Of a DNA stretch of 64,000 bases, positions 1-10,132 are shown one piece after another. This stretch comes from the human T2T-CHM13v2.0 reference genome, Homo sapiens. Every line of letters begins with the position of its first letter. The first letter of the stretch is position 1. The notes below the pieces were generated by a model, which did not search any database, was not told the origin of the DNA, and saw only the letters and a program-made list of their open reading frames with translations. The position numbers and the translations under genes were made by a program. The stretch is taken from the NCBI RefSeq assembly GCF_009914755.1, contig NC_060927.1; one strand, 5' to 3'.

Positions 1-136
1 TGGGGATCCTGTCAGGAGTTTATACTGACCCGCCATCAATGCTAAGAGGGACCTGAAATATTCCCGCGAGGGAAGTGGCCAGAGCAGATGCAGCGAAAAA
101 AGGGTGCAAGAAACCTCCAGTAGGTGGGGCTAAAGG

Positions 137-290
137 ATAGGCAAGAAATCTCTAACACAAGGTATTGAGCCTTAACAAGCTCCCCAAGGAAGAATAGGCA
201 AGAAATCACTGATACAAAGGATTGAGCCTTAACAAGCCCCCAGAGAAGAATAGGCAAGAAGTCTTTAGTACAAGGGATTCAGCCTAACTA
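137..290 (+). repeat. Three ~56-57 bp diverged tandem repeats in the proviral leader
   Basis: ATAGGCAAGAA..TC...ACAA.G.ATT.AGCCT.A recurs at ~137, ~194 and ~250. Confidence 0.85.
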
Positions 291-299
291 GGACCCAAC

Positions 300-665
300 A
301 TGGGAAATACGCCAAGCAAGACAAGAAGTAAAAAGGATAAAAACAGCAACAAAGATAGTCCCCCCAATCTCTTGTTAAAAGACCTAGCCCCCTAGGTCTC
401 ATGTTAAAATATTGGAAAGATAATAAAAGGTTAGAAAAGCCAGTTCCCATGCCTAAAGACCATCACATGGGATCCCCTACACTGTCTTCCCCTGCTCAGT
501 GACCCCAACCCTTTCCTCTCAGGCAGCTGTTGCCATCCTAGATCCTGCTTCATATCCTTCCCCTACTCATGTTACTCCTCCTCCTTACAATTCTCACTCT
601 TGGGAATCAACACCCTATGAACCTATTCCCTCCCAGCCTAAGTATCCCTCCTTAAAGGGACTCCA
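300..665 (+). pseudogene. ERV gag 5' remnant (matrix/late-domain region), disrupted
   Basis: ATG GGA AAT (MGN myristoylation-type start) at 300; SPLGLMLKYWKDN; WDPL; VTPPPYN late motif; ends at PKYPSLKGL. Confidence 0.8.
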
Positions 666-1227
666 TGCACCTAAGTCGCCAGGCAGCTTTTGTAGGGTGG
701 GCAGCATCAAGGATCTGCCACACTGTGTCACTGGCATCGTCCGGGCCCTGGTGTGCCTCCACAGTAGGCAGAGCCCACGCTCCTGCCCCCTTGCTGGTCC
801 AGGGTTCAGGCACCATGTAAAGGGTGGCTCTGCAAAACATGCAGACCAGGCCACGGGCCAAACCCCGAACAGGCTACATTATGGGACATCTGCCTTACTT
901 CTGCTGGGGCCAAGTGGTGCAGGGATTTGGCTGCGGCTCCAAGCAGCTGGGCATCCCTGCAGCTAATTTTCCTGAGTAAGTGGTAGATAACCTTCCAGCT
1001 GATATATCCACCGGCATTTATTGTAGTTGGGCCAGTGCTGGAAGTAGAGATGTCCATAAGATGGTGGTGAGCACAGGATGGAACCCATACTACAAGAATA
1101 CAAAGAAGCCCATGGAAACACATATCATGCATACCTTCAAAAAAGACTTCTATAAGGAAATCCTCAATGTGATCATTGTTGGCTACCCCAGACCAGAAAA
1201 GAACTTTGATTCTTTAGAGTCACTTAT
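666..1227 (+). pseudogene. RFK (pseudogene copy): Processed (intronless) riboflavin kinase (RFK) retrocopy: GC-rich 5'UTR plus codons 1-116, 3'-truncated, premature stop at 977-979
   Basis: From ATG 881: [51 protein letters not shown]...GWNPYYKNTKKPMETHIMHTF...RPEKNFDSLESLI, colinear with human RFK ([45 protein letters not shown]...). The 5' boundary is approximate. Confidence 0.93.
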
Positions 1228-3012
1228 ATTAAAATATACCACTGGAAAAGTATTACATGTGTATGAGTATGAGGCTACTCTGTTAAAACAAGAGGATGAT
1301 TTAACCACTGATAATTTGCTTAACCCAGGAGGTTTCTTAACAAGAGTTCTAAATCTAAAAAGAAAGCACACATGTTTAGATTTAATTGATTACCATACAA
1401 AGGTCCGGCCAAAGTTAGGAGAAACTCACTTCAGGACTGGGCGACAGTTCTTTATAGATGGCTCCTCCCAAGTGATTGAAGGAAAAAGACACAATGGGTA
1501 TTCAGTAATTGATGGAGACGCTCTTAAAGAAATAGAGTCAAGAAAATAGCCCAATAATTGGTCTGCCCAAACTTGTGAATTGTTTGCACTCAGCCAAGCC
1601 TTAAAGTACTTGCAGAACCAGGAGGAACCATCTATACCAATTCTAAGTACACCTTTGGGGTGGCTCATACATTTGGAAAGATTTTAGGCTGAACGAGGTC
1701 TTATTAACAGTAAGGTCAAAACCTTGTTCACAAGGAATTAATCACCCGAGCACTGAATAACCTTCAGTTGCCAGAGAAAATCGCTATTGTCTATGTCCCC
1801 AGACACCAAAAAAGCCTGTCTTTTAAGAGTCAGGAAAATAACCTAACAGATCAGATAAGCCAAACAGGCTGCCATTTCTTCTGAAATGCCTGTTCTCCAC
1901 TTAACTCCTTACCTTCCTCCTCCTACTGTGATCTCTGTTTTCTCTTCCACTGAGAAAGAAAAGCTAGTAAGAACAGGCACTAAAGAGAGCTCAGAATAAA
2001 AATAGATATTGACAGACCAAGTCTTGTCCAACCTGCATCAAAGGACTCATTAAGGACCCCAGGCCATGTGTGATGCAGTCTTCATGGAACTTATACCCTA
2101 GCCAAAACGGGTTATAGATAGTTGCTTTATATGTAAATATATGAAAACTGATAAACAAACTATAAAAGAGATTATCCCTTGGGGAAAGGAGTCCAGGCTT
2201 AAGACCATTCCAAAGTACCCAAATTAATCAGAGATGCCTCTAACGGGTTGTCTAAAATACTTATTAATGACAATAGATCACCTCACTCACTGGGTCAAAT
2301 GCAACAGCCAATAATATAGTTAAGGCATTAATTAAAAATATAGTGCTCAAGTTCAGGCTAATAAAAAATATTGACTCAGACAATGGAACCCATTTCACAG
2401 CTCATATCATTAAAAAGCTATCCCAAGCCCTAAACATTAAATGAAAATATCATACTCCTTGGCACCCACCGTCATTAAGGAAGGTTAAAAAGACAAATCA
2501 GAGCTTAAAGAACCATCTAACCAAATTAGTTATAAAGACTCAGTTGCCATGGACCAAATGTCTTCCAATTGCCCTGATGAAAATCCAAACTGCTCCTCAA
2601 AAAGATACAGGCCTTTCCCTTTATGAGATGGCTCTACAGACTGCCTTATTTACACTCCACTGCTGACATTCCTACATTTAAAACAAAAGACCAATTCCTC
2701 AAGAATTATATACTTGGTCTCTCCTTTACTTTCTCTTTTTCTTAAAACCAAAGGTCTCTTAGCACAGGCGCTAACCCTGGAGCTCTCAGTCCATTAATAA
2801 CAGCCTGGGGATCACGTCCTCATCAAGGAGGAAAAACTTGAGCTGGCCTGGGAAGGACCTTACCTGCGGCTTCTAACCACTAAAACCGCAGTCCAGACAG
2901 CAAAAAAAGGATGGACCCATCACACCCGAGTCAAGAAAACACCACCACCTCCAGAGTCATGGGCCATTATCCAAAGAAAAAAACCTCTCAAACTAAAGCT
3001 ACAAAAAGTTTA
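1228..3012 (+). pseudogene. ERV pol 3' remnant: tether, RNase H and integrase, with many stops and frameshifts; protease and RT absent
   Basis: LKY..EATLL..DDL..LNPGGFL; FFIDGSSQVIEGKRHNGYSV; SAQTCELFALSQAL; HHCC remnant (LHQRTH, DSCFIC); IDSDNGTHF; WEGPY; GWTHHTRVKK. Confidence 0.9.
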
Positions 3013-4912
3013 ACTCTCTTTCATCTTTCCATCTATTCTATTACTTTCTTCTTTTCTCATTCTATTGATGACCACCTTGTTATCAATGTAACTAGGTCAG
3101 ATTCACCCCAAATCAATACCTTTGATGCTTGTCTTGTTACACCTTGTGAGGACGAACAATGACAAAGACAAATCTCTACTTTAGAAAAATACCTCTGCCC
3201 CTCCAGAAAAGCCACTGACCCTGCATCTTGCTCATGGCAGGGGTACCAAGACACCCCAAATTGAGAGATATGTTCCCAATGGGCAGATATCATCTGGACT
3301 ACCAGAGATCCGGGCTGGACCTCCCCAGATGGCTGTACCAACCTAAAATCTTACCTCCACTTTTACCAAAGGAACCACCCCCTCTAATTGTCCATCTCAC
3401 CATTGTAACCCAGTAACTATTTCCATTAATACTCCTACCTCCACCAACCCTACACCCCCTTCAGAGCACTTTTACGGCTTAAGAGTAAAGACCAATGGAT
3501 ACAACCCTATATGCTTCTTTAAAATGCGTTTTATTAACCTCCCTCCTCCTTCTCCATCTAAACCTTCTACCCTGCCCTACAACAATGCTGAAGTAAACAT
3601 TGTAGAAGCAGATGATCTAAGGCAAACTCTAGCAATTAAAATAGGATATCAAGATACAAATGTCTGGTTGAAATGCATCAAAAATTCTGTCCGCACATTA
3701 AACAAAAGCAATTGTTATGCTTGTGTGCATGGCCGGCCAGAGGCCCAGATTGTCCCCTTTCCACTCGAATGGTGCTCCAGTCAACCGGGCATGGGCTGCA
3801 TGGTAACTCTCTTCCAGGATTCTACAGCTAGGAGTAATAAATCATGCCAAGCTCTCTCCCTGCTCTATCCCAAAGTCCAACACCCTGTGGGTCAGCCCCC
3901 AAGGGCCATCCAGCTTCCATCTCTCAATGTCAATTTCACCTTGTGTCTCTCACGGAATGGGAAAAACTTGGCGTTCCTGGGAAGCTTAATGGAACACAGT
4001 GAGCTTAGGCCCTTCCAAGAGCTTACCCATCAGTCTGCCCTTAGCCATCCTTGAGCAGGTATATGATGGTATTGTGGTGGACCCTTACTGGGCACTCCAC
4101 CAAGTAACTGGAGCAGCACTTGCTCTCTTGTCCAGTTGGCTATCCCTTTCACCCTGGCATTTCATCAAGCAGAGAAAAAAAAAAAATCACAACACTGAAA
4201 AGTAAGAGAAGCCCCTTATGGGTCTTTTGACTCTTAAGTTTATTTAGACGCAATTGGAATCTCACAGGGAGTACCTGATAAATTCAAAGCCCAAGACCAA
4301 ATAGCTGCAGGATTTGAATCATTGCCTCCATGGGTAAGTATCAACAAAAATGTAGATTGGATAGATTACATCTATTATAATCAGCAGCGATTTATTAATT
4401 ACACCAGAGATGCTGTCAAAGGAATAGCTGACCAATTAGGTCCTACTAGCAAGAATGGCTTGGAAAAACAGAATGGCCCTAGACATGATATTAGCTGAAA
4501 AAGGTGGAGTTTGTATTATAATGAAAACTCAATATTGTACCTTCATCCCAAACAATACTGCCCCCAATGAGAGCATAGTGAAGGTCTTGCAAGGGATTAC
4601 AGCTTTATCCAATGAATTAACTAGAATCAACAACTCTTTTTCAAGATGGCTAAAAAGGTGGTTCAATAAATGAAAAGAAATCGTGGCCTCAATTCTTACT
4701 TTGCTTGCAGTTGTAATACTTGTACTCATTCTTATTGGGTGCTGTGTCATACCATGCATTGTAGGTTAGTGCAAACGCTTATAAAAACAGCACTTACTAA
4801 AATCTCCCTTAGCTCTCCTCCACCTTATGCAAGTAAGCTTTTCCTTTTAAAGGATCAAGTCGGACAGCAAAGCCCAGACATGTTAAAAAGGTTTAAAGAG
4901 AAAAGATTATAA
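3013..4912 (+). pseudogene. ERV env remnant (SU+TM), near full length but disrupted
   Basis: Hydrophobic signal-like LFHLSIYSITFFFS; CYAC motif; immunosuppressive domain NRMALDMILAEKGGVC, CX6(C)C region, TM helix and cytoplasmic tail to TAA 4912. Confidence 0.88.
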
Positions 4913-4930
4913 AAATTAAAAGCAGGGAAC

Positions 4931-5447
4931 TGTAAGATATAATGAATTTCTCTTCAAAGGTTCAGCCTGTTAACTTCCTTGTTCTTTGTTCTCAAACTCA
5001 ACTTTCTTGTCCTCCATGCCTCCTTGCCTCTAGTTACTGTAAACAACCTTCCCATCAGCTCTAATCAATAACTCACATCTGTTCCCTTGGTTACCCACTC
5101 TGCACCCATTCCACCTTTTTGAAACCACACGTCCACCCTTCGAAACCACACATCCCACCACTGTAACTCACCTTCCCCTTCCCTCTTCCTTATTTAAAAA
5201 AAAAAATTCACAAGTAGCCAATCAAGTCAGCTTAAATTGTGCGGTTCAACCCCAGCCCACAGGGGAGTGACACTGAGGTAGGGACTACACATCAGAAATA
5301 AAAACCCCTTCTCTCCTTTGTTCCCTGTGCTCTCGCCATTGCTCCATCCACGAGACACGCCCTTCTGCAAAAATAAACTGCCTTGCTAAGAAAACTTTTG
5401 CCTGAGTGCTGGTTTCACTTTGCAGCACCAAGCATTTACTTCCAACA
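4931..5447 (+). mobile_element. 3' LTR, LTR10 family
   Basis: Preceded by purine tract AAAAGCAGGGAAC; begins TGTAAGA and ends TCCAACA; two AATAAA; followed directly by L1 sequence. Confidence 0.85.
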
Positions 5448-6200
5448 TGTCTACACAAAAAAGTGAACACAAATGTTTACAGTAGTTTTACTCATATTTG
5501 CCCAAAAGTAGAGGCAACCAAGATGTCTTTCAATAGGTAAGCAGCTAAAAAAATTGTGGTATATCCATACAATGAGGTATTATTCAGGGACAAAAAGAAA
5601 TTAGGTATCCAGCCAGAAAAAGACATAAAGGAATGTTAAATATATTGCTAAGTGAAAGAACCACGTCTAAAAAGGCTACATACTGTATGATTCCAACTAT
5701 AGGACATTCTGAAAAAGACAAAACTATAGAGATAGTAAAAAGTTCAGTGGTGGCCAGGGGATGGGAGGAGGTGGATGGGAGGAGGGGATGGGAGGAGGGG
5801 GATGAGAAGGTGGCTAAATAGGTGGATGTTGGGATTCTGGAGGCAGTAAAACTATTCTGCATGACACTGTAATCGTGGATACATGACATTATGCATTTGT
5901 CAATACCCACAGAACTATACAATAAAAAGTGTGGGCCCTAATGGAAATTATAAAAGGTAAATTATATACTTCAGTTAATAATTTAGTATCAATATTAGTT
6001 CATCAATTGTAACAAATGTACCACAGCATTGCAAGATGTTAGTAACCGGGAAAAATGTACCACACCAATGCAAGATGTTAATAACAGGGGAAATGGGGAA
6101 ATATGGGTGGGGGTAAGGGATTATATAGGCTCACTCTACTTTCTGTTCACTTATTATGTAAACCTAAAACTGCTTTAAAGAACAGTCTCTTTTCTTAAAA
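5448..6200 (+). mobile_element. Old L1M (L1MB/MC-like) 3' end, into which the ERV inserted
   Basis: Typical L1M 3' motifs (CAACCAAGATGTC, TATGATTCCAACTAT, TGTAACAAATGTACCAC, AAACCTAAAACTGCT). Confidence 0.8.
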
Positions 6201-6601: not shown

Positions 6602-8089
6602 TAAACTTTTAATTTTAGACTAGACCATCACATTACTTCTTTGCACTCCAGTTTCCTCAAATGTAAAATGAGAGAGCTAAATTTGACAGACAGGAACATG
6701 AATCAGAATACTAGAGTCACTTTCAGCTCAAAATTTATTTTCTTTTCTACATGAACCTAAGTTTGAACTAAAACAAATTCTAAAGCACAGACTCCTTTAT
6801 TTATCTTAAACCTTTTCACGATAGGCAAACAGAATTTTCATTATTTTCAATGTAAGGTGATAACCAAACTGTCTTATAAGTAAATTAATGATAAGTAATG
6901 TATTTCCTATCACAATTTTCTCTCCACAAGATCAAGAGCATTTAGTCTTTTGCAACTGTTTGAAGTATTCAAAAAGATCATCAAGAGTGTAAGTTAAGAA
7001 TCTGAGATAACTATAAGGAATCAGATACTCTCAAGAAGGCAATCCAGATAGATAGGCTACCAGTATCTCTCACTGGTAGCAACTTTCTCATATTCCCTAA
7101 CATTCACGTAACCAAAGACGAACACACACTAAACCCAATGCCAGGAGAAGTCAATTTCCTTGTCTTAAAAGTAGTGTAAGTCTCACACTAAATATCAAAA
7201 GCCTCATCCTAGAAAACTAAGATTTATGATCTATCCTCAAGCAACTAGTACATAAAATAGCATCTGTGTGCTATAGAATATGGTACATAACAAATAAGTG
7301 TTTTCCAATTAATTTATTCAACAAATAGTTGTGTAACATTTACTATATGTCAAGCACTATGCTGAGCAATGGAACAGAATGATGAGCAAAACCAAGTTTA
7401 AACTCCATTAGGGAAGACAAACTAATATATGTCAAGTGGTAATAAATACAATATTTTAAAAACAAAGCAACATAACTGGTAGGGTATTTGTTGACTGGGA
7501 AAGGACACATGAAAGCCTTCTGGAATAATGATGAAGATGTTCTGTACTTAACTTGATCTGGGTGTTGTATTCACTGAGCAGTACACTTAGGCTTTATGCA
7601 ATCTGCTGTATATGTTCTACCTCCAAGTGTTTTTTAAGCCTGTTAAAAGCAACACCTAGAATATCAATGCTGTCCAGCTCTAATGATGATTTCCTCTTGA
7701 TTACCACAATTGTTAATACACTTCCAAATATATGAACTACGTATCTTCACAGTTCTTCACAGAACTATGTAAATACAATTACAATGTCTAGAACCGTTAA
7801 AGCCAATCATTTAGTAAGCATCAACTGGCTACAGATAAGGTAAAAGAAAACCAAACTCTTACCTCAACTTATAGGAAAAGATAAAAACAGAATGATGCTA
7901 AAAAGGAGTCCTACAACTACTCATAATAAATATAGAATGTGATATAAGTGCCTTTTAAAAATAAACCTACCTTTAACCATTTAGTATTTCCTCATTTCCT
8001 CCTCTGTTCCAAAACTCCAGAGTTTCTCTTAGAGGGGAACAAAAGGAATGCAAGAACTGTGCATTCAAATTGTTCCAAGACTCATACAA

Positions 8090-8345: not shown

Positions 8346-9454
8346 TTACTGCTGCTACTGCTGCTACTAGGAGTCCTACCAGAATTGGCACCTAGGTACC
8401 ACAAACAGGCAAATTAATCCAGTTAAGAAAAGGTATGGATCCTAACAGCTAATGTCATTGGTAACACTCCATTTCTGCTCCCATTTATACCCAGAATAAC
8501 AGTACTTTTAGTATGACTCTGCCCTATGTTAATACATCAACTTAGCACATTCCATCTAAATTGTCACTTATATTTGCACTACATAAAACAGATCATATGA
8601 TGCCTAACCAATGACACAAAACATTCAATGAAAGTCAATCAAATTCCCAAGTACAGAAAAGGGAAAAAATCCCTATACATGTCAAGGGAAAAGTTAGTAG
8701 CTAAGGCAAATCTAGTTCCTTTTTAATGGGTTTTGCTAGACAGTCTCAATTTGATGAATGTCCAACCCTCCAAAATGAATCTGTCTCTTCACTTTATCTA
8801 CATGACAATTCAAATCAACAATTTAATCAGTATCTGTACCTACTATGAATCTAGCATGTCCCTAGATACAATCAGAGAATGTAAAAATTGTATGAGACAT
8901 AATCCTTGCTCTGACTGACTAGTTAGGAAGAGTCTAACACAAAAGCAATCCATTTATTCAGTCAACAGACACTTCTTGAGGGAATATTCAGTGAATGTGG
9001 CTCCAGGCCTGGCCTGGGTGGTTTTAAAATTTACAAAGGAAATACGGTCAAATGGATAAAAGCTGCACAATGTTAAATACAACAAAAGCGGTAGAGGGTA
9101 TGAAGGAAGCAAGAAAAAGAAAAATCTGGAATGTCAGAAGACTTCCTGGGAAGGTAGCATCTGTATTAGATGTTGAGAGACAGGTAAGTTGACGAGAAAG
9201 AGAAGAGAGAACATTTAAGGCAGAGGTAAAAGCATATACTAGAGACAAATCCACATGCCTTCTGAACAGAAGACAAACCCAGAAAGGTAGCCAAAGATCT
9301 TACACCATGATAAAGGACTTAAGCTTTATTCTGTAACAAATGAGTAGTAAATAAAAGATTCATATGGGGGGATATATGATCAGACTTCTGAATGTTTACC
9401 TGGGGTAGGACAGAAGAATAGACAAGGCTGGAGACAGAAAATAAGTAACAGCCC

Positions 9455-10132
9455 AAGGGTAGGCAAACCTTTTCTGTAAAAGGCCCGACAGTAAACATTT
9501 CGGGCTTTGCAAGCCATACAGTCTCGGTCACAACTACAAAATTCTGCCTTCGTAGCATAAAAATAGCAATAGACAATTAATACATAAACTAATGAGCAAG
9601 GCAGCTGCTTTAATCCATTTTGTAGTGCTATGACAGAATACATGAGACTGGGTAATTTATAAAGAAAAGGTTTATTCACCTCACAGTTCTACAGGCTAGG
9701 AAATTTAAAGGGCATGGCCCTGGCTTCTGGTGAGGACTTTCATGCTACATCACAAAATGACAAAGAAGCTCAAAGGGGAAGTGGTCAGATGTGAAGACAA
9801 AAAATCTGGCGGCATCCTGGCTTTATAACAATCCATTATCTCAGAATTAACCCATTCCCATGAGAACTAATCTAGTACCACCAGAGCAAGAACTCACTCA
9901 CTGCTACAAAAAGGTACAAAGCCATTCATGAGGGATCCACCCCCCATGAAACAAAACATCTCCCACCAGGCCTCATCTCTTAACACTGCCACATTGATGA
10001 TCGAAACAAGTTTTAATGCTGAAAAACAAACCATATCTAAACCACAGAAGTTGCATTCTAATAAAACTTGATTTACAAAGACAGACGGCTAGCCGTATTT
10101 GGCTTTATGGGCTATAGTTTGCAAACCTCTGG
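9455..10132. mobile_element. MER58A hAT MITE split by a MaLR LTR
   Basis: GGGTAGGCAAACCTTTTCTGTAAAAGGCC start and TAGTTTGCAAACCTCTG end. Confidence 0.8.
9606..10047 (-). mobile_element. MaLR solo LTR (MST/MLT1A-like)
   Basis: GAGACTGGGTAATTTATAAAGAAAAGGTTTATT...CAAACCATATCTAAACCACAG. Confidence 0.8.

What the first reader, a model, noticed from the sequence alone, without database searches (positions are those of the whole stretch)
300..1549. Host riboflavin kinase mRNA apparently captured inside a HERV-I genome (v-onc-style transduction)
Seen in sequence: gag runs to PKYPSLKGL (~665). It is followed by ~215 bp of GC-rich leader and an intronless RFK CDS (codons 1-116), which switches at ~1227 directly into pol tether/RNase H. 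Capsid, nucleocapsid, protease and RT (about 3 kb in an intact class I ERV) are missing exactly where RFK sits. Established: L1-made processed pseudogenes normally keep the 3' end and poly-A, carry a TSD and are 5'-truncated. This copy is the reverse: 5'UTR kept, 3' end lost, no poly-A or TSD, same sense as the virus, and replacing viral sequence. Inference: two RT template switches between co-packaged viral and RFK RNA, as in acutely transforming retroviruses or the ERV-transduced FAM8A1 copies. The chimera then entered the primate germline with helper functions. I do not know whether this case has been described.
Basis: partly seen in the sequence, partly recalled or inferred. Interest (0 to 1): 0.85.

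Follow-up and report, generated by a model that had tools for sequence, protein, structure and literature searches.

The report
Riboflavin kinase gene captured by retrovirus
An ancient primate retrovirus swapped about 3 kb of its own core genes for part of the host riboflavin kinase messenger RNA, and this hybrid then copied itself to at least nine places in the human genome, which is a rare kind of event for human endogenous retroviruses.

Summary
Window 1-5447, plus a 5' LTR 439-934 bp upstream of the window, is a defective class-I provirus of HERV-IP/HERV-I type. About 605 nt of spliced RFK mRNA (window 666-1271) replace the 2.7-3.2 kb of gag-pro-RT found in canonical relatives.

One correction. 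The switch at 1227/1228 is not RFK-to-pol. It is an internal ~350-nt deletion inside RFK exon 4, and 1228-1271 is a piece of the RFK 3'UTR. Pol homology starts at 1266, across a 7-nt microhomology (AAGTATG).

The RFK part starts 8-9 nt from the mRNA 5' end, as marked by two full-length ordinary processed pseudogenes.

Eight other proviruses (chr4, 7, 3 twice, 6, 19, 12, 11) carry the same junctions. Six of the eight proviruses with both LTR ends in view have perfect, different 4-bp target-site duplications. The chimera therefore replicated as a unit.

LTR divergence is 0.16 for this copy, the oldest and longest form, and 0.10-0.14 for the others.

Best explanation: reverse-transcriptase template switching onto co-packaged RFK mRNA, followed by spread with helper proteins. 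No paper found names it. I rate it a new member of a known kind.

The parts
1..299 (+). Proviral leader downstream of the PBS. The 5' LTR and the PBS lie upstream of the window, at about -934 to -439 and just after. Holds a 57-bp tandem repeat at 133-285.
   Evidence: Homology to the leaders of the other chimeric copies and of canonical relatives. 5' LTR found in L009 at 9066-9561. Tandem repeat.
300..665 (+). 5' part of gag: ATG at 300, matrix with a 265-bp internal deletion at 430/431, and a proline-rich PPPY region. Broken by stops. Ends at the 5' junction.
   Evidence: 35 of 38 canonical hits end at window 663-666. The 265-bp deletion relative to canonical L024 is shared with the chr4 copy only.
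666..880 (+). RFK 5'UTR. Starts 8-9 nt downstream of the mRNA 5' end inferred from two processed pseudogenes. Its CpGs are heavily decayed.
881..1227 (+). RFK coding sequence, codons 1-116: exons 1-3 plus the first 10 nt of exon 4, with no introns. Stop at codon 33 (977-979).
1228..1271 (+). 44-nt piece of the RFK 3'UTR. About 350 nt of exon 4 are missing between 1227 and 1228, with no GT-AG ends.
   Evidence: The stretch is exonic in pseudogenes L020, L021 and L023.
1265..1271 (+). 3' junction microhomology. AAGTATG is present in both the RFK 3'UTR and canonical pol. This copy reads GAGTATG; the other chimeric copies keep A at the first position.
1266..3013 (+). 3' part of pol: the tether/RNase H region, then integrase core and C-terminal domain. 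Many stops and frame breaks.
   Evidence: 29 of 39 canonical hits start at window 1266 and none earlier. Pfam rve at 2277-2444 (20.2 bits) and MLVIN_C at 2801-3013 (27 bits), both below the curated cut-offs. RNase H placed by homology to the canonical ORF with PF00075, which also scores below its cut-off.
3014..4930 (+). env region (broken), followed by the polypurine tract just before the LTR.
   Evidence: TLV_coat at 4440-4673 (21 bits, just below cut-off). DNA homology at 78-80% to the env of the other copies. PPT seen.
4931..5447 (+). 3' LTR (TG...CA).
   Evidence: K2P distance to the 5' LTR is 0.163.
5448..5451 (+). Target-site duplication TGTC. The same four bases precede the 5' LTR upstream of the window.

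Best explanation
A HERV-IP/HERV-I-type gammaretrovirus-like virus packaged a mature RFK mRNA together with its own genomic RNA.

During minus-strand DNA synthesis, reverse transcriptase left the viral template in the pol tether just upstream of RNase H. It landed in the RFK 3'UTR at a 7-nt match (AAGTATG). It then copied the mRNA towards its 5' end. On the way, or in a later replication cycle, it skipped about 350 nt of exon 4. Close to the cap end it returned to the viral RNA in gag.

The product kept both LTRs, the PBS, the leader and 5' gag (the presumed packaging region), RNase H-integrase, env and the PPT. It lost capsid, nucleocapsid, protease and RT.

It was then transcribed, packaged and reverse-transcribed with proteins supplied by intact relatives. 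It integrated at least nine times in the germline, roughly 20-40 million years ago.

The window copy is the oldest of those dated and the longest form. A derivative with a further 135-nt RFK deletion and a deletion of about 1 kb in integrase made seven of the copies.

Shown: the anatomy, the shared junctions, independent integrations, and microhomology at the 3' junction. Inferred: co-packaging, the order of the jumps, and helper dependence. RFK was most likely a passive passenger: its ATG is out of frame with gag in this copy.
For: 1. Spliced RFK exons 1-4 lie in viral sense between gag and pol.
2. Canonical gag homology stops at window 663-666 (35 of 38 hits). Canonical pol homology starts at 1266 (29 of 39 hits, none earlier). 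These breakpoints are 2.7-3.2 kb apart in 6 canonical loci. The interval holds RVP and RVT_1 in the one locus scanned.
3. 3' junction: the RFK 3'UTR and pol share AAGTATG at the crossover.
4. 5' junction: RFK starts at parent position 544-545. Two ordinary processed pseudogenes (chr22, chr1) both start at 536.
5. Eight other proviruses share the junctions. A second genome search, using a subfamily-B query, returned the same loci and no new ones.
6. Target-site duplications: TGTC, TCTC, ATTT, ACAA, CATA and GATC are perfect in 6 of 8 proviruses. One matches 3 of 4 bases and one is unclear. All flanks differ.
7. LTR K2P is 0.163 for the window copy and 0.096-0.143 for six other copies.
8. The seven subfamily-B copies form a 100/100 clade in pol. 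One origin of all chimeras is compatible with the tree (86/87).
9. 17 RFK columns carry a base shared by all or all but one viral copy and different from the parent and both pseudogenes.
Against: - The 5' junction has at most 1-2 nt of exact overlap. There is an imperfect 7-of-10 similarity between the mRNA's first bases and gag, which I read by eye. The microhomology argument therefore rests on the 3' junction alone.
- The mRNA 5' end is inferred from two pseudogene ends, not from annotation or CAGE data.
- No other primate genome could be searched, so ages rest on LTR divergence alone.
- The exon-4 deletion has no clear microhomology, and its timing is unknown.
- In the env tree the chimeras are not one group (2 changes needed) and resolution is poor.
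- Copy counts are lower bounds by the tool's own statement.
- The chrX fragment keeps neither junction.
Confidence: 0.85

Rival explanations
1. Classical oncogene-style capture. A provirus integrated upstream of RFK. A read-through or deletion-fused gag-RFK transcript was spliced and packaged, and only the 3' junction arose by RT recombination with a helper genome.
For: It gives the same final anatomy: spliced insert, same sense, no poly-A, and a microhomology-mediated 3' junction. The weak overlap at the 5' junction fits a DNA-level or illegitimate join.
Against: The RFK part begins 8-9 nt from the 5' end of two independent full-length processed pseudogenes. A read-through or deletion join has no reason to fall there. 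It would normally include promoter or upstream DNA, or start at a splice acceptor. The junction is not at an exon border.
Confidence: 0.08
2. An ordinary L1-made RFK processed pseudogene landed inside a HERV-IP provirus. Later deletions removed its poly-A, its duplication and 3 kb of viral genes. The rearranged provirus was then transcribed and amplified in trans.
For: RFK does make L1-type pseudogenes. Four loci without viral flanks within 5 kb were found, on chr22, chr1 (twice) and chr3.
Against: It needs two deletions that end exactly in register with the gag and pol breakpoints. One of them must fall at a 7-nt RFK/pol microhomology. No trace of poly-A, duplication or intervening viral sequence survives in any of the 9 copies. 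The insert is full-length at its 5' end and truncated at its 3' end, the reverse of the L1 pattern.
Confidence: 0.04
3. One chimera arose once and was spread by DNA-level duplication or gene conversion between proviruses, not by retrotransposition.
For: None specific. Pericentromeric HERV-IP copies are duplicated in this genome: near-identical hit patterns appear on chr13, 14, 15, 18, 21 and 22 for canonical copies.
Against: Each chimeric provirus has its own flanks and its own 4-bp duplication directly at the LTR ends. Pairwise identity is 76-80% in the RFK part.
Confidence: 0.01

Closest known systems
FAM8A1 retrocopies inside HERV-K14 (Jamain et al. 2001, known to me only as cited in Tan et al. 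2016, PMC5131818; passages and the Supplemental Table 8 passage seen)
   Same: A host mRNA sits inside a human ERV in place of viral sequence. It is flanked by a discontinuous LTR element, has no L1 hallmarks, and shows microsimilarity at the fusion points. More than one genomic copy exists: two FAM8A1 loci are listed.
   Different: A different virus class (class II HERV-K14 against class I HERV-IP-like) and a different gene. Here at least 9 proviral copies fall into two structural subfamilies. The insert runs from the mRNA 5' end and carries an extra internal deletion. RFK is not in that paper's main text or in the one supplement file that could be searched. File 1 of its supplements could not be searched.
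LTR-mediated retroposition by double template switch (Tan et al. 2016 model; also yeast Ty1 and the maize Bs1 element, as cited in that paper's passages)
   Same: The mechanism proposed here is that model: a switch from the retroelement RNA to a co-packaged mRNA and back, then further rounds of retroposition as a pseudo-element.
   Different: That survey looked for recently originated retrocopies. For human it listed only FAM8A1 (two loci) and one MER4-flanked copy of ENSG00000176788. The RFK family is older, with LTR divergence of 10-16%, and is not listed there.
Acutely transforming retroviruses carrying v-onc genes (recalled textbook knowledge)
   Same: A replication-defective genome in which host cDNA replaces viral genes. 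It depends on a helper, and the 3' join arises by RT recombination.
   Different: RFK is a metabolic enzyme, not a growth regulator. Only codons 1-116 of 155 are present (155 counted from the parent-gene exon-4 translation). The RFK ATG is out of frame with gag in this copy (read). There is no evidence that it was ever expressed. The 5' join near the cap site points to mRNA co-packaging rather than read-through.
Non-autonomous deleted ERV lineages amplified in trans, such as deleted HERV-H forms or mouse ETn/MusD (recalled)
   Same: A defective internal region amplified to several copies with helper proteins. The more deleted form (subfamily B) is the more numerous.
   Different: Those lineages carry deletions or unrelated non-coding inserts, not an identifiable host mRNA.

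Membership tests
LTR-element-mediated (retrovirally transduced) retrocopy | Intronless host mRNA sequence inside an LTR element, in the element's sense | tested here: met
   Exons 1-4 are joined without introns. Exon borders were placed by GT/AG and by identity to the parent gene. Orientation.
LTR-element-mediated (retrovirally transduced) retrocopy | The flanking element is discontinuous: viral sequence is replaced, not merely interrupted | tested here: met
   The gag breakpoint (665) and the pol breakpoint (1266) are 2.7-3.2 kb apart in 6 canonical loci.
LTR-element-mediated (retrovirally transduced) retrocopy | No L1 hallmarks around the insert (poly-A tail, flanking duplication) | tested here: met
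   The insert ends in a 3'UTR piece fused to pol. No A-run or direct repeat is present at either junction.
LTR-element-mediated (retrovirally transduced) retrocopy | Microsimilarity at both fusion points | tested here: inconclusive
   3' junction: 7 nt are shared. 5' junction: only 1-2 nt of exact overlap, plus an imperfect similarity that I read by eye.
LTR-element-mediated (retrovirally transduced) retrocopy | Whole chimera bounded by two LTRs and an integrase-type duplication; the same chimera at several sites | tested here: met
   TGTC flanks this copy. 6 of 8 proviruses have perfect and different 4-bp duplications. Junctions are shared.
L1-type processed pseudogene | 3' end of the mRNA with poly-A retained, 5' truncation common, 7-20 bp duplication around the retrocopy | tested here: not met
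   The 5' end is kept. The last ~1.6 kb of the 3'UTR and the poly-A are absent. The flanks are gag and pol in register with canonical copies.
HERV-IP / HERV-I group of class I ERVs | DNA homology of gag, pol, env and LTR to the genomic family; gammaretrovirus-type pol and env domains; 4-bp duplication | tested here: met
   39 scored pol hits at 77-84% identity from 459 candidates. 38 hits to the distal gag block. rve, MLVIN_C and TLV_coat matches all score below their curated cut-offs. 4-bp duplications.
HERV-IP / HERV-I group of class I ERVs | Assignment to a named Repbase/Dfam entry (HERVIP10F, FH or B3; LTR10 subtype) and PBS type | not testable with these tools
   No repeat library is on hand. 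The PBS after the 5' LTR in the subfamily-B copies reads tgggggctcgtccgggat. I recall this as the tRNA-Pro PBS of MLV; it was not tested.
Acutely transforming (v-onc) retrovirus | Captured gene expressed, usually as a Gag fusion, and giving a growth effect | tested here: not met
   In this copy the gag frame and the RFK ATG differ by +1 (coordinates). RFK is truncated at codon 116. Expression and any growth effect cannot be tested here.

The most novel reading that the evidence does not exclude
The RFK insert was not a mere passenger. The RFK frame runs on into the pol (RNase H-integrase) frame in this copy, and the 135-nt deletion of the prolific subfamily B keeps that frame. dN/dS against the parent gene is 0.25 (17 non-synonymous and 16 synonymous changes). 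So a truncated RFK-Pol product, or the CpG-island 5'UTR acting as an internal promoter, may have helped this defective genome to spread. Separately, because the unedited template is known, the insert is a calibrated record of the virus's mutational spectrum. Changes on the shared (internal) branches are G-to-A 26 against C-to-T 8, an APOBEC3-like strand asymmetry in a retrovirus tens of millions of years old.
Probability: 0.08. Interest if true: 0.8.

Novelty: new member of a known kind. Interest (0 to 1): 0.6.

Why it matters
Capture of host genes is a defining property of retroviruses, yet it is hardly documented among human endogenous retroviruses. The 2016 survey I read lists only FAM8A1 (two loci) and one other locus.

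Here a captured host mRNA defines a whole small family of at least 9 proviruses in two structural subfamilies. All three discontinuities are resolved to the base, and the integrations are independent. This is direct fossil evidence for three things in the primate germline:
- co-packaging of a cellular mRNA;
- microhomology-guided template switching;
- trans-complemented spread of a defective genome.

There are two practical consequences:
- Loci catalogued as RFK pseudogenes, RFKP3 among them, are of two different origins. The ERV-borne ones should not be counted as L1 retrocopies.
- The insert gives a known starting sequence against which the ancient virus's replication errors and editing can be read.

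Tried and rejected
- Alternative splicing as the cause of the 1227/1228 break. I first thought 1227 was the exon 3/4 border. Exon 3 in fact ends at window 1217. The break lies 10 nt into exon 4, and the missing stretch has no GT-AG ends. Rejected.
- The 44 nt at 1228-1271 as viral sequence. Rejected, because canonical pol does not match before 1266 and the RFK gene does.
- Segmental duplication. Rejected on flanks and duplications.
- Literature. Searches for riboflavin kinase or RFK with endogenous retrovirus, HERV or pseudogene terms, for RFKP1-4, for FLJ11149 with retrovir, and for HERVIP10 with transduction found no paper on this. The 8 papers and the one were judged from the listing only. 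Vargiu et al. 2016 (PMC4724089, passages only) has no occurrence of 'kinase' or 'transduc'.
- dN/dS of 0.25 is not taken as evidence of selection. The counts are small, synonymous CpG decay is expected, and the parent branch is under constraint.
- Pfam found no capsid domain in the degraded canonical ORFs. The loss of capsid and nucleocapsid is inferred from position only.
- The chrX locus could not be placed. It has a partial LTR, then 1.7 kb of unmatched sequence, then RFK 737-1020 only.
- The chr4 copy's 3' LTR was not in the 10 kb fetched.
Full report
**What is in the window**

Window 1-5447 is most of a class-I provirus on the + strand. By the hub's gene table it lies in intron 1 of GSK3B, antisense to that gene.

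The 5' LTR lies just upstream of the window, at L009 9066-9561, which is about -934 to -439 in window terms. The 3' LTR is at 4931-5447. Both are flanked by TGTC.

The order is: leader (1-299, with a 57-bp tandem repeat at 133-285), gag ATG at 300, the RFK insert, 3' pol, env, LTR.

Pfam sees Flavokinase at 821-976 and 980-1549 (E 1.9e-4 and 3.9e-18). It also sees weak rve, MLVIN_C and TLV_coat matches further on, all below their curated cut-offs.

**The RFK part**

phmmer against PDB aligns window 980-1231 to human riboflavin kinase residues 33-116 (E 5.6e-44).

The parent gene was found on contig C9 and fetched as L010. Against it the window matches as follows:

| Window | Parent gene | Identity |
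|---|---|---|
| 667-957 | exon 1, including 214 nt upstream of the ATG | 76% |
| 961-1118 | exon 2 | 90.5% |
| 1114-1217 | exon 3 | 92% |
| 1228-1271 | a 44-nt stretch 1.4 kb downstream of exon 3 | 91% |

I placed the exon borders by GT/AG and by identity. Codons 1-116 (window 881-1227) are then 314 of 348 nt identical to the spliced parent. Sixteen of 116 residues differ, and codon 33 is a stop.

The low identity of the 5'UTR is CpG decay: only 5 of the parent's 30 CpGs survive.

**Correction of the 3' boundary**

Exon 3 ends at window 1217. Positions 1218-1227 are the first 10 nt of exon 4.

The 44 nt at 1228-1271 lie about 360 nt into exon 4, in the 3'UTR. That stretch is contiguous exon sequence in three ordinary RFK processed pseudogenes, L020, L021 and L023 (parent 7398-7927).

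So 1227/1228 is an internal RFK deletion of about 350 nt. It has no GT-AG ends and no clear microhomology. It is not the switch into pol.

Canonical genomic relatives match pol only from window 1266. Of the 39 non-self hits, 29 start exactly there and none starts earlier.

At the crossover the RFK 3'UTR and canonical pol both read AAGTATG. The other chimeric copies keep that A, whereas this copy has G at 1265.

**The 5' boundary**

Thirty-five of 38 canonical hits covering the distal gag block end at window 663-666, and none goes further.

RFK homology begins at parent position 544-545.

Two ordinary processed pseudogenes, on chr22 (L019) and chr1 (L020), both begin at parent 536 with unrelated sequence upstream. 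The viral insert therefore starts 8-9 nt from what is most simply read as the mRNA 5' end.

Exact overlap at this junction is only 1-2 nt. I also see an imperfect similarity between the first nine mRNA bases and the last gag bases. That is my reading, not a statistic.

**What was lost**

In six canonical loci the two breakpoints are about 2.7-3.2 kb apart.

In L024 that interval holds ORF fragments with a retroviral protease (PF00077) and RT (PF00078). RNase H (PF00075, below its cut-off) begins after the pol breakpoint.

No capsid domain was detected in those degraded ORFs, so the loss of capsid and nucleocapsid is inferred from position.

**The chimera is a family**

A genome search with window 600-1300 scored all 25 of its candidates. 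Besides the parent gene it found two kinds of locus.

- Four loci with no viral sequence within 5 kb, on chr22, chr1 (twice) and chr3:114.75 Mb. I did not check these for poly-A or duplications.
- Loci where the RFK stretch sits inside the same kind of provirus: chr4:143.92 Mb, chr7:23.79, chr3:161.40, chr6:86.18, chr3:48.30, chr19:12.01, chr12:126.62 and chr11:5.87 Mb, plus a fragment on chrX:87.41 Mb.

A second search, with the chr19 copy as query, returned the same set and no new locus. The tool states that such counts are lower bounds.

An alignment of the junction region shows:

- the same gag/RFK junction in all eight proviruses (in chr4 a 97-bp gag deletion ends just before it);
- the same exon-4 deletion junction in seven (chr4 has a larger deletion, window 1054-1231);
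- the same 3'UTR/pol junction in all eight.

In addition, 17 RFK columns carry a base that all or all but one viral copy share. That base differs from the parent and from both pseudogenes.

**Independent integrations**

Eight proviruses have both LTR ends in the fetched DNA.

| Copy | 4-bp duplication |
|---|---|
| window | TGTC |
| chr7 | TCTC |
| chr12 | ATTT (reading the last LTR base as mutated) |
| chr11 | ACAA |
| chr6 | CATA |
| chr3:161 Mb | GATC |
| chr3:48 Mb | 3 of 4 match (AGAT/AGAC) |
| chr19 | unclear (GATT/GAGA) |

All flanks differ.

**Structure and age of the family**

The window and chr4 copies share a 265-bp matrix deletion and keep integrase. I call these subfamily A.

The other seven copies keep that matrix stretch but lack 135 nt of RFK (window 1057-1191) and about 985 bp of integrase (window 1884-2868). 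I call these subfamily B.

In a pol tree the seven B copies form a 100/100 clade on a long stem. The window copy sits next to the canonical elements, and one origin for all chimeras is compatible with the tree (86/87). The chr4 copy was dropped from that tree because its hit was too short.

The env tree is poorly resolved. It does not unite the chimeras, and it places chr4 with the chr7 copy (94/92). That may reflect recombination between the subfamilies.

K2P distance between the 5' and 3' LTRs is 0.163 for the window copy and 0.096-0.143 for six B copies. At commonly used neutral rates, which I recall rather than compute, that is very roughly 20-40 million years. It is in line with the 10-19% and 30-40 million years that Vargiu et al. 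give for HERVIP (PMC4724089, passage).

The window copy thus has the greatest LTR divergence of the seven copies measured and carries the longest RFK insert.

**Mechanism**

The facts fit reverse-transcriptase template switching onto a co-packaged mature mRNA:

- the insert is spliced;
- it is in viral sense;
- it has no poly-A;
- its 3' join lies at a 7-nt match;
- its 5' join lies next to the mRNA's 5' end, where a polymerase copying the mRNA runs out of template.

This is the model set out for LTR elements by Tan et al. 2016 (PMC5131818, passages).

The classical read-through model gives no reason for a join at the cap-proximal end. The model of an L1 insertion followed by deletions needs two precisely placed deletions and leaves no trace in any copy. 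I give these 0.08 and 0.04.

The chimera kept its LTRs, PBS, leader, 5' gag and PPT but had no protease or RT. Its spread must therefore have used proteins from intact relatives. This is inferred, not shown.

In this copy the RFK ATG is +1 relative to the gag frame, while the RFK frame continues into the pol frame. I take RFK to be a passenger.

**Side observations on mutation pattern**

I used the parent gene, with at least one pseudogene agreeing with it, as the ancestral state.

| Branch type | G-to-A | C-to-T | Total changes |
|---|---|---|---|
| Shared within the viral lineage (internal) | 26 | 8 | 44 |
| Private to single viral copies | 23 | 27 | not totalled separately |

The Fisher test gives p = 0.007. 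Outside CpG the internal counts are 18 against 5.

This plus-strand G-to-A excess on the branches that include the replication cycles is what APOBEC3-type editing of minus-strand DNA, or an RT bias, would leave. Vargiu et al. note A-richness of HERVIP and raise APOBEC.

Caveats: the numbers are small, parallel CpG decay is possible, and the result depends on the alignment.

dN/dS of the window's RFK against the parent is 0.25 (17 non-synonymous, 16 synonymous). I do not read this as selection.

**Is it known?**

No paper in the searchable library links RFK with an endogenous retrovirus. The hits were judged by listing only.

For human, Tan et al. list two FAM8A1 loci in HERVK14 and one MER4-flanked copy of ENSG00000176788, and RFK is not among them. 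One of that paper's supplement files could not be searched.

RefSeq annotates 881-1228 simply as RFKP3 (hub table).

I could not consult Repbase, Dfam or subscription journals. The family may therefore be catalogued as a HERVIP10 subtype without the capture having been remarked on.

I file it as a new member of a known kind, retroviral or LTR-mediated gene capture. It is notable for its copy number and for how cleanly the junctions can be read.

**Not done**

- No primate orthologues were examined, because none are held.
- No repeat-library naming was possible.
- No expression data were examined.
- Poly-A and duplications of the four ordinary pseudogenes were not checked.
- The founder's reading frames were not inferred (see the referred step).

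Noticed in passing
window 667-1271 and the homologous stretches of L011-L018: Changes shared within the viral lineage are strongly G-to-A on the plus strand (26 G-to-A against 8 C-to-T). Private changes of single copies are balanced (23 against 27; Fisher p = 0.007). This is an APOBEC3-like or RT-bias signature, readable because the host template is known.
   Followed up: partly
window 881-1227: dN/dS of the captured RFK codons against the parent gene is 0.25 (17 non-synonymous, 16 synonymous). That is lower than a simple neutral pseudogene expectation. CpG-driven synonymous change and constraint on the parent branch may explain it.
   Followed up: partly
window 133-285: A 57-bp tandem repeat, 2.7 copies at 83% match, in the proviral leader between the PBS and gag. 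Its role, for example in packaging or as an enhancer, is unknown.
   Followed up: no
L018 (chr4:143.92 Mb): This copy shares the subfamily-A 265-bp matrix deletion with the window copy. In the env tree, however, it groups with the subfamily-B chr7 copy (94/92), which suggests recombination between subfamilies. Its 3' LTR was not within the 10 kb fetched.
   Followed up: partly
L014 5226-5532 (chr3:48.30 Mb) and L012 (chr3:161.40 Mb): Later insertions inside the RFK insert of other copies. L014 has an Alu with a 12-bp duplication of window-equivalent 1214-1225. L012 has an AT-rich insertion of about 150 bp exactly at the exon-4 deletion junction.
   Followed up: no
L022 (chrX:87.41 Mb): A partial LTR that is 83% identical to the window's LTR, the closest of all copies. 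It is followed by 1.7 kb of unmatched sequence and then only RFK positions 737-1020. Neither junction is kept, and its origin is unresolved.
   Followed up: partly
canonical HERV-IP hits on C13, C14, C15, C18, C21, C22: Near-identical hit coordinates and scores recur on several acrocentric or pericentromeric contigs. This suggests one canonical provirus carried along in segmental duplications.
   Followed up: no
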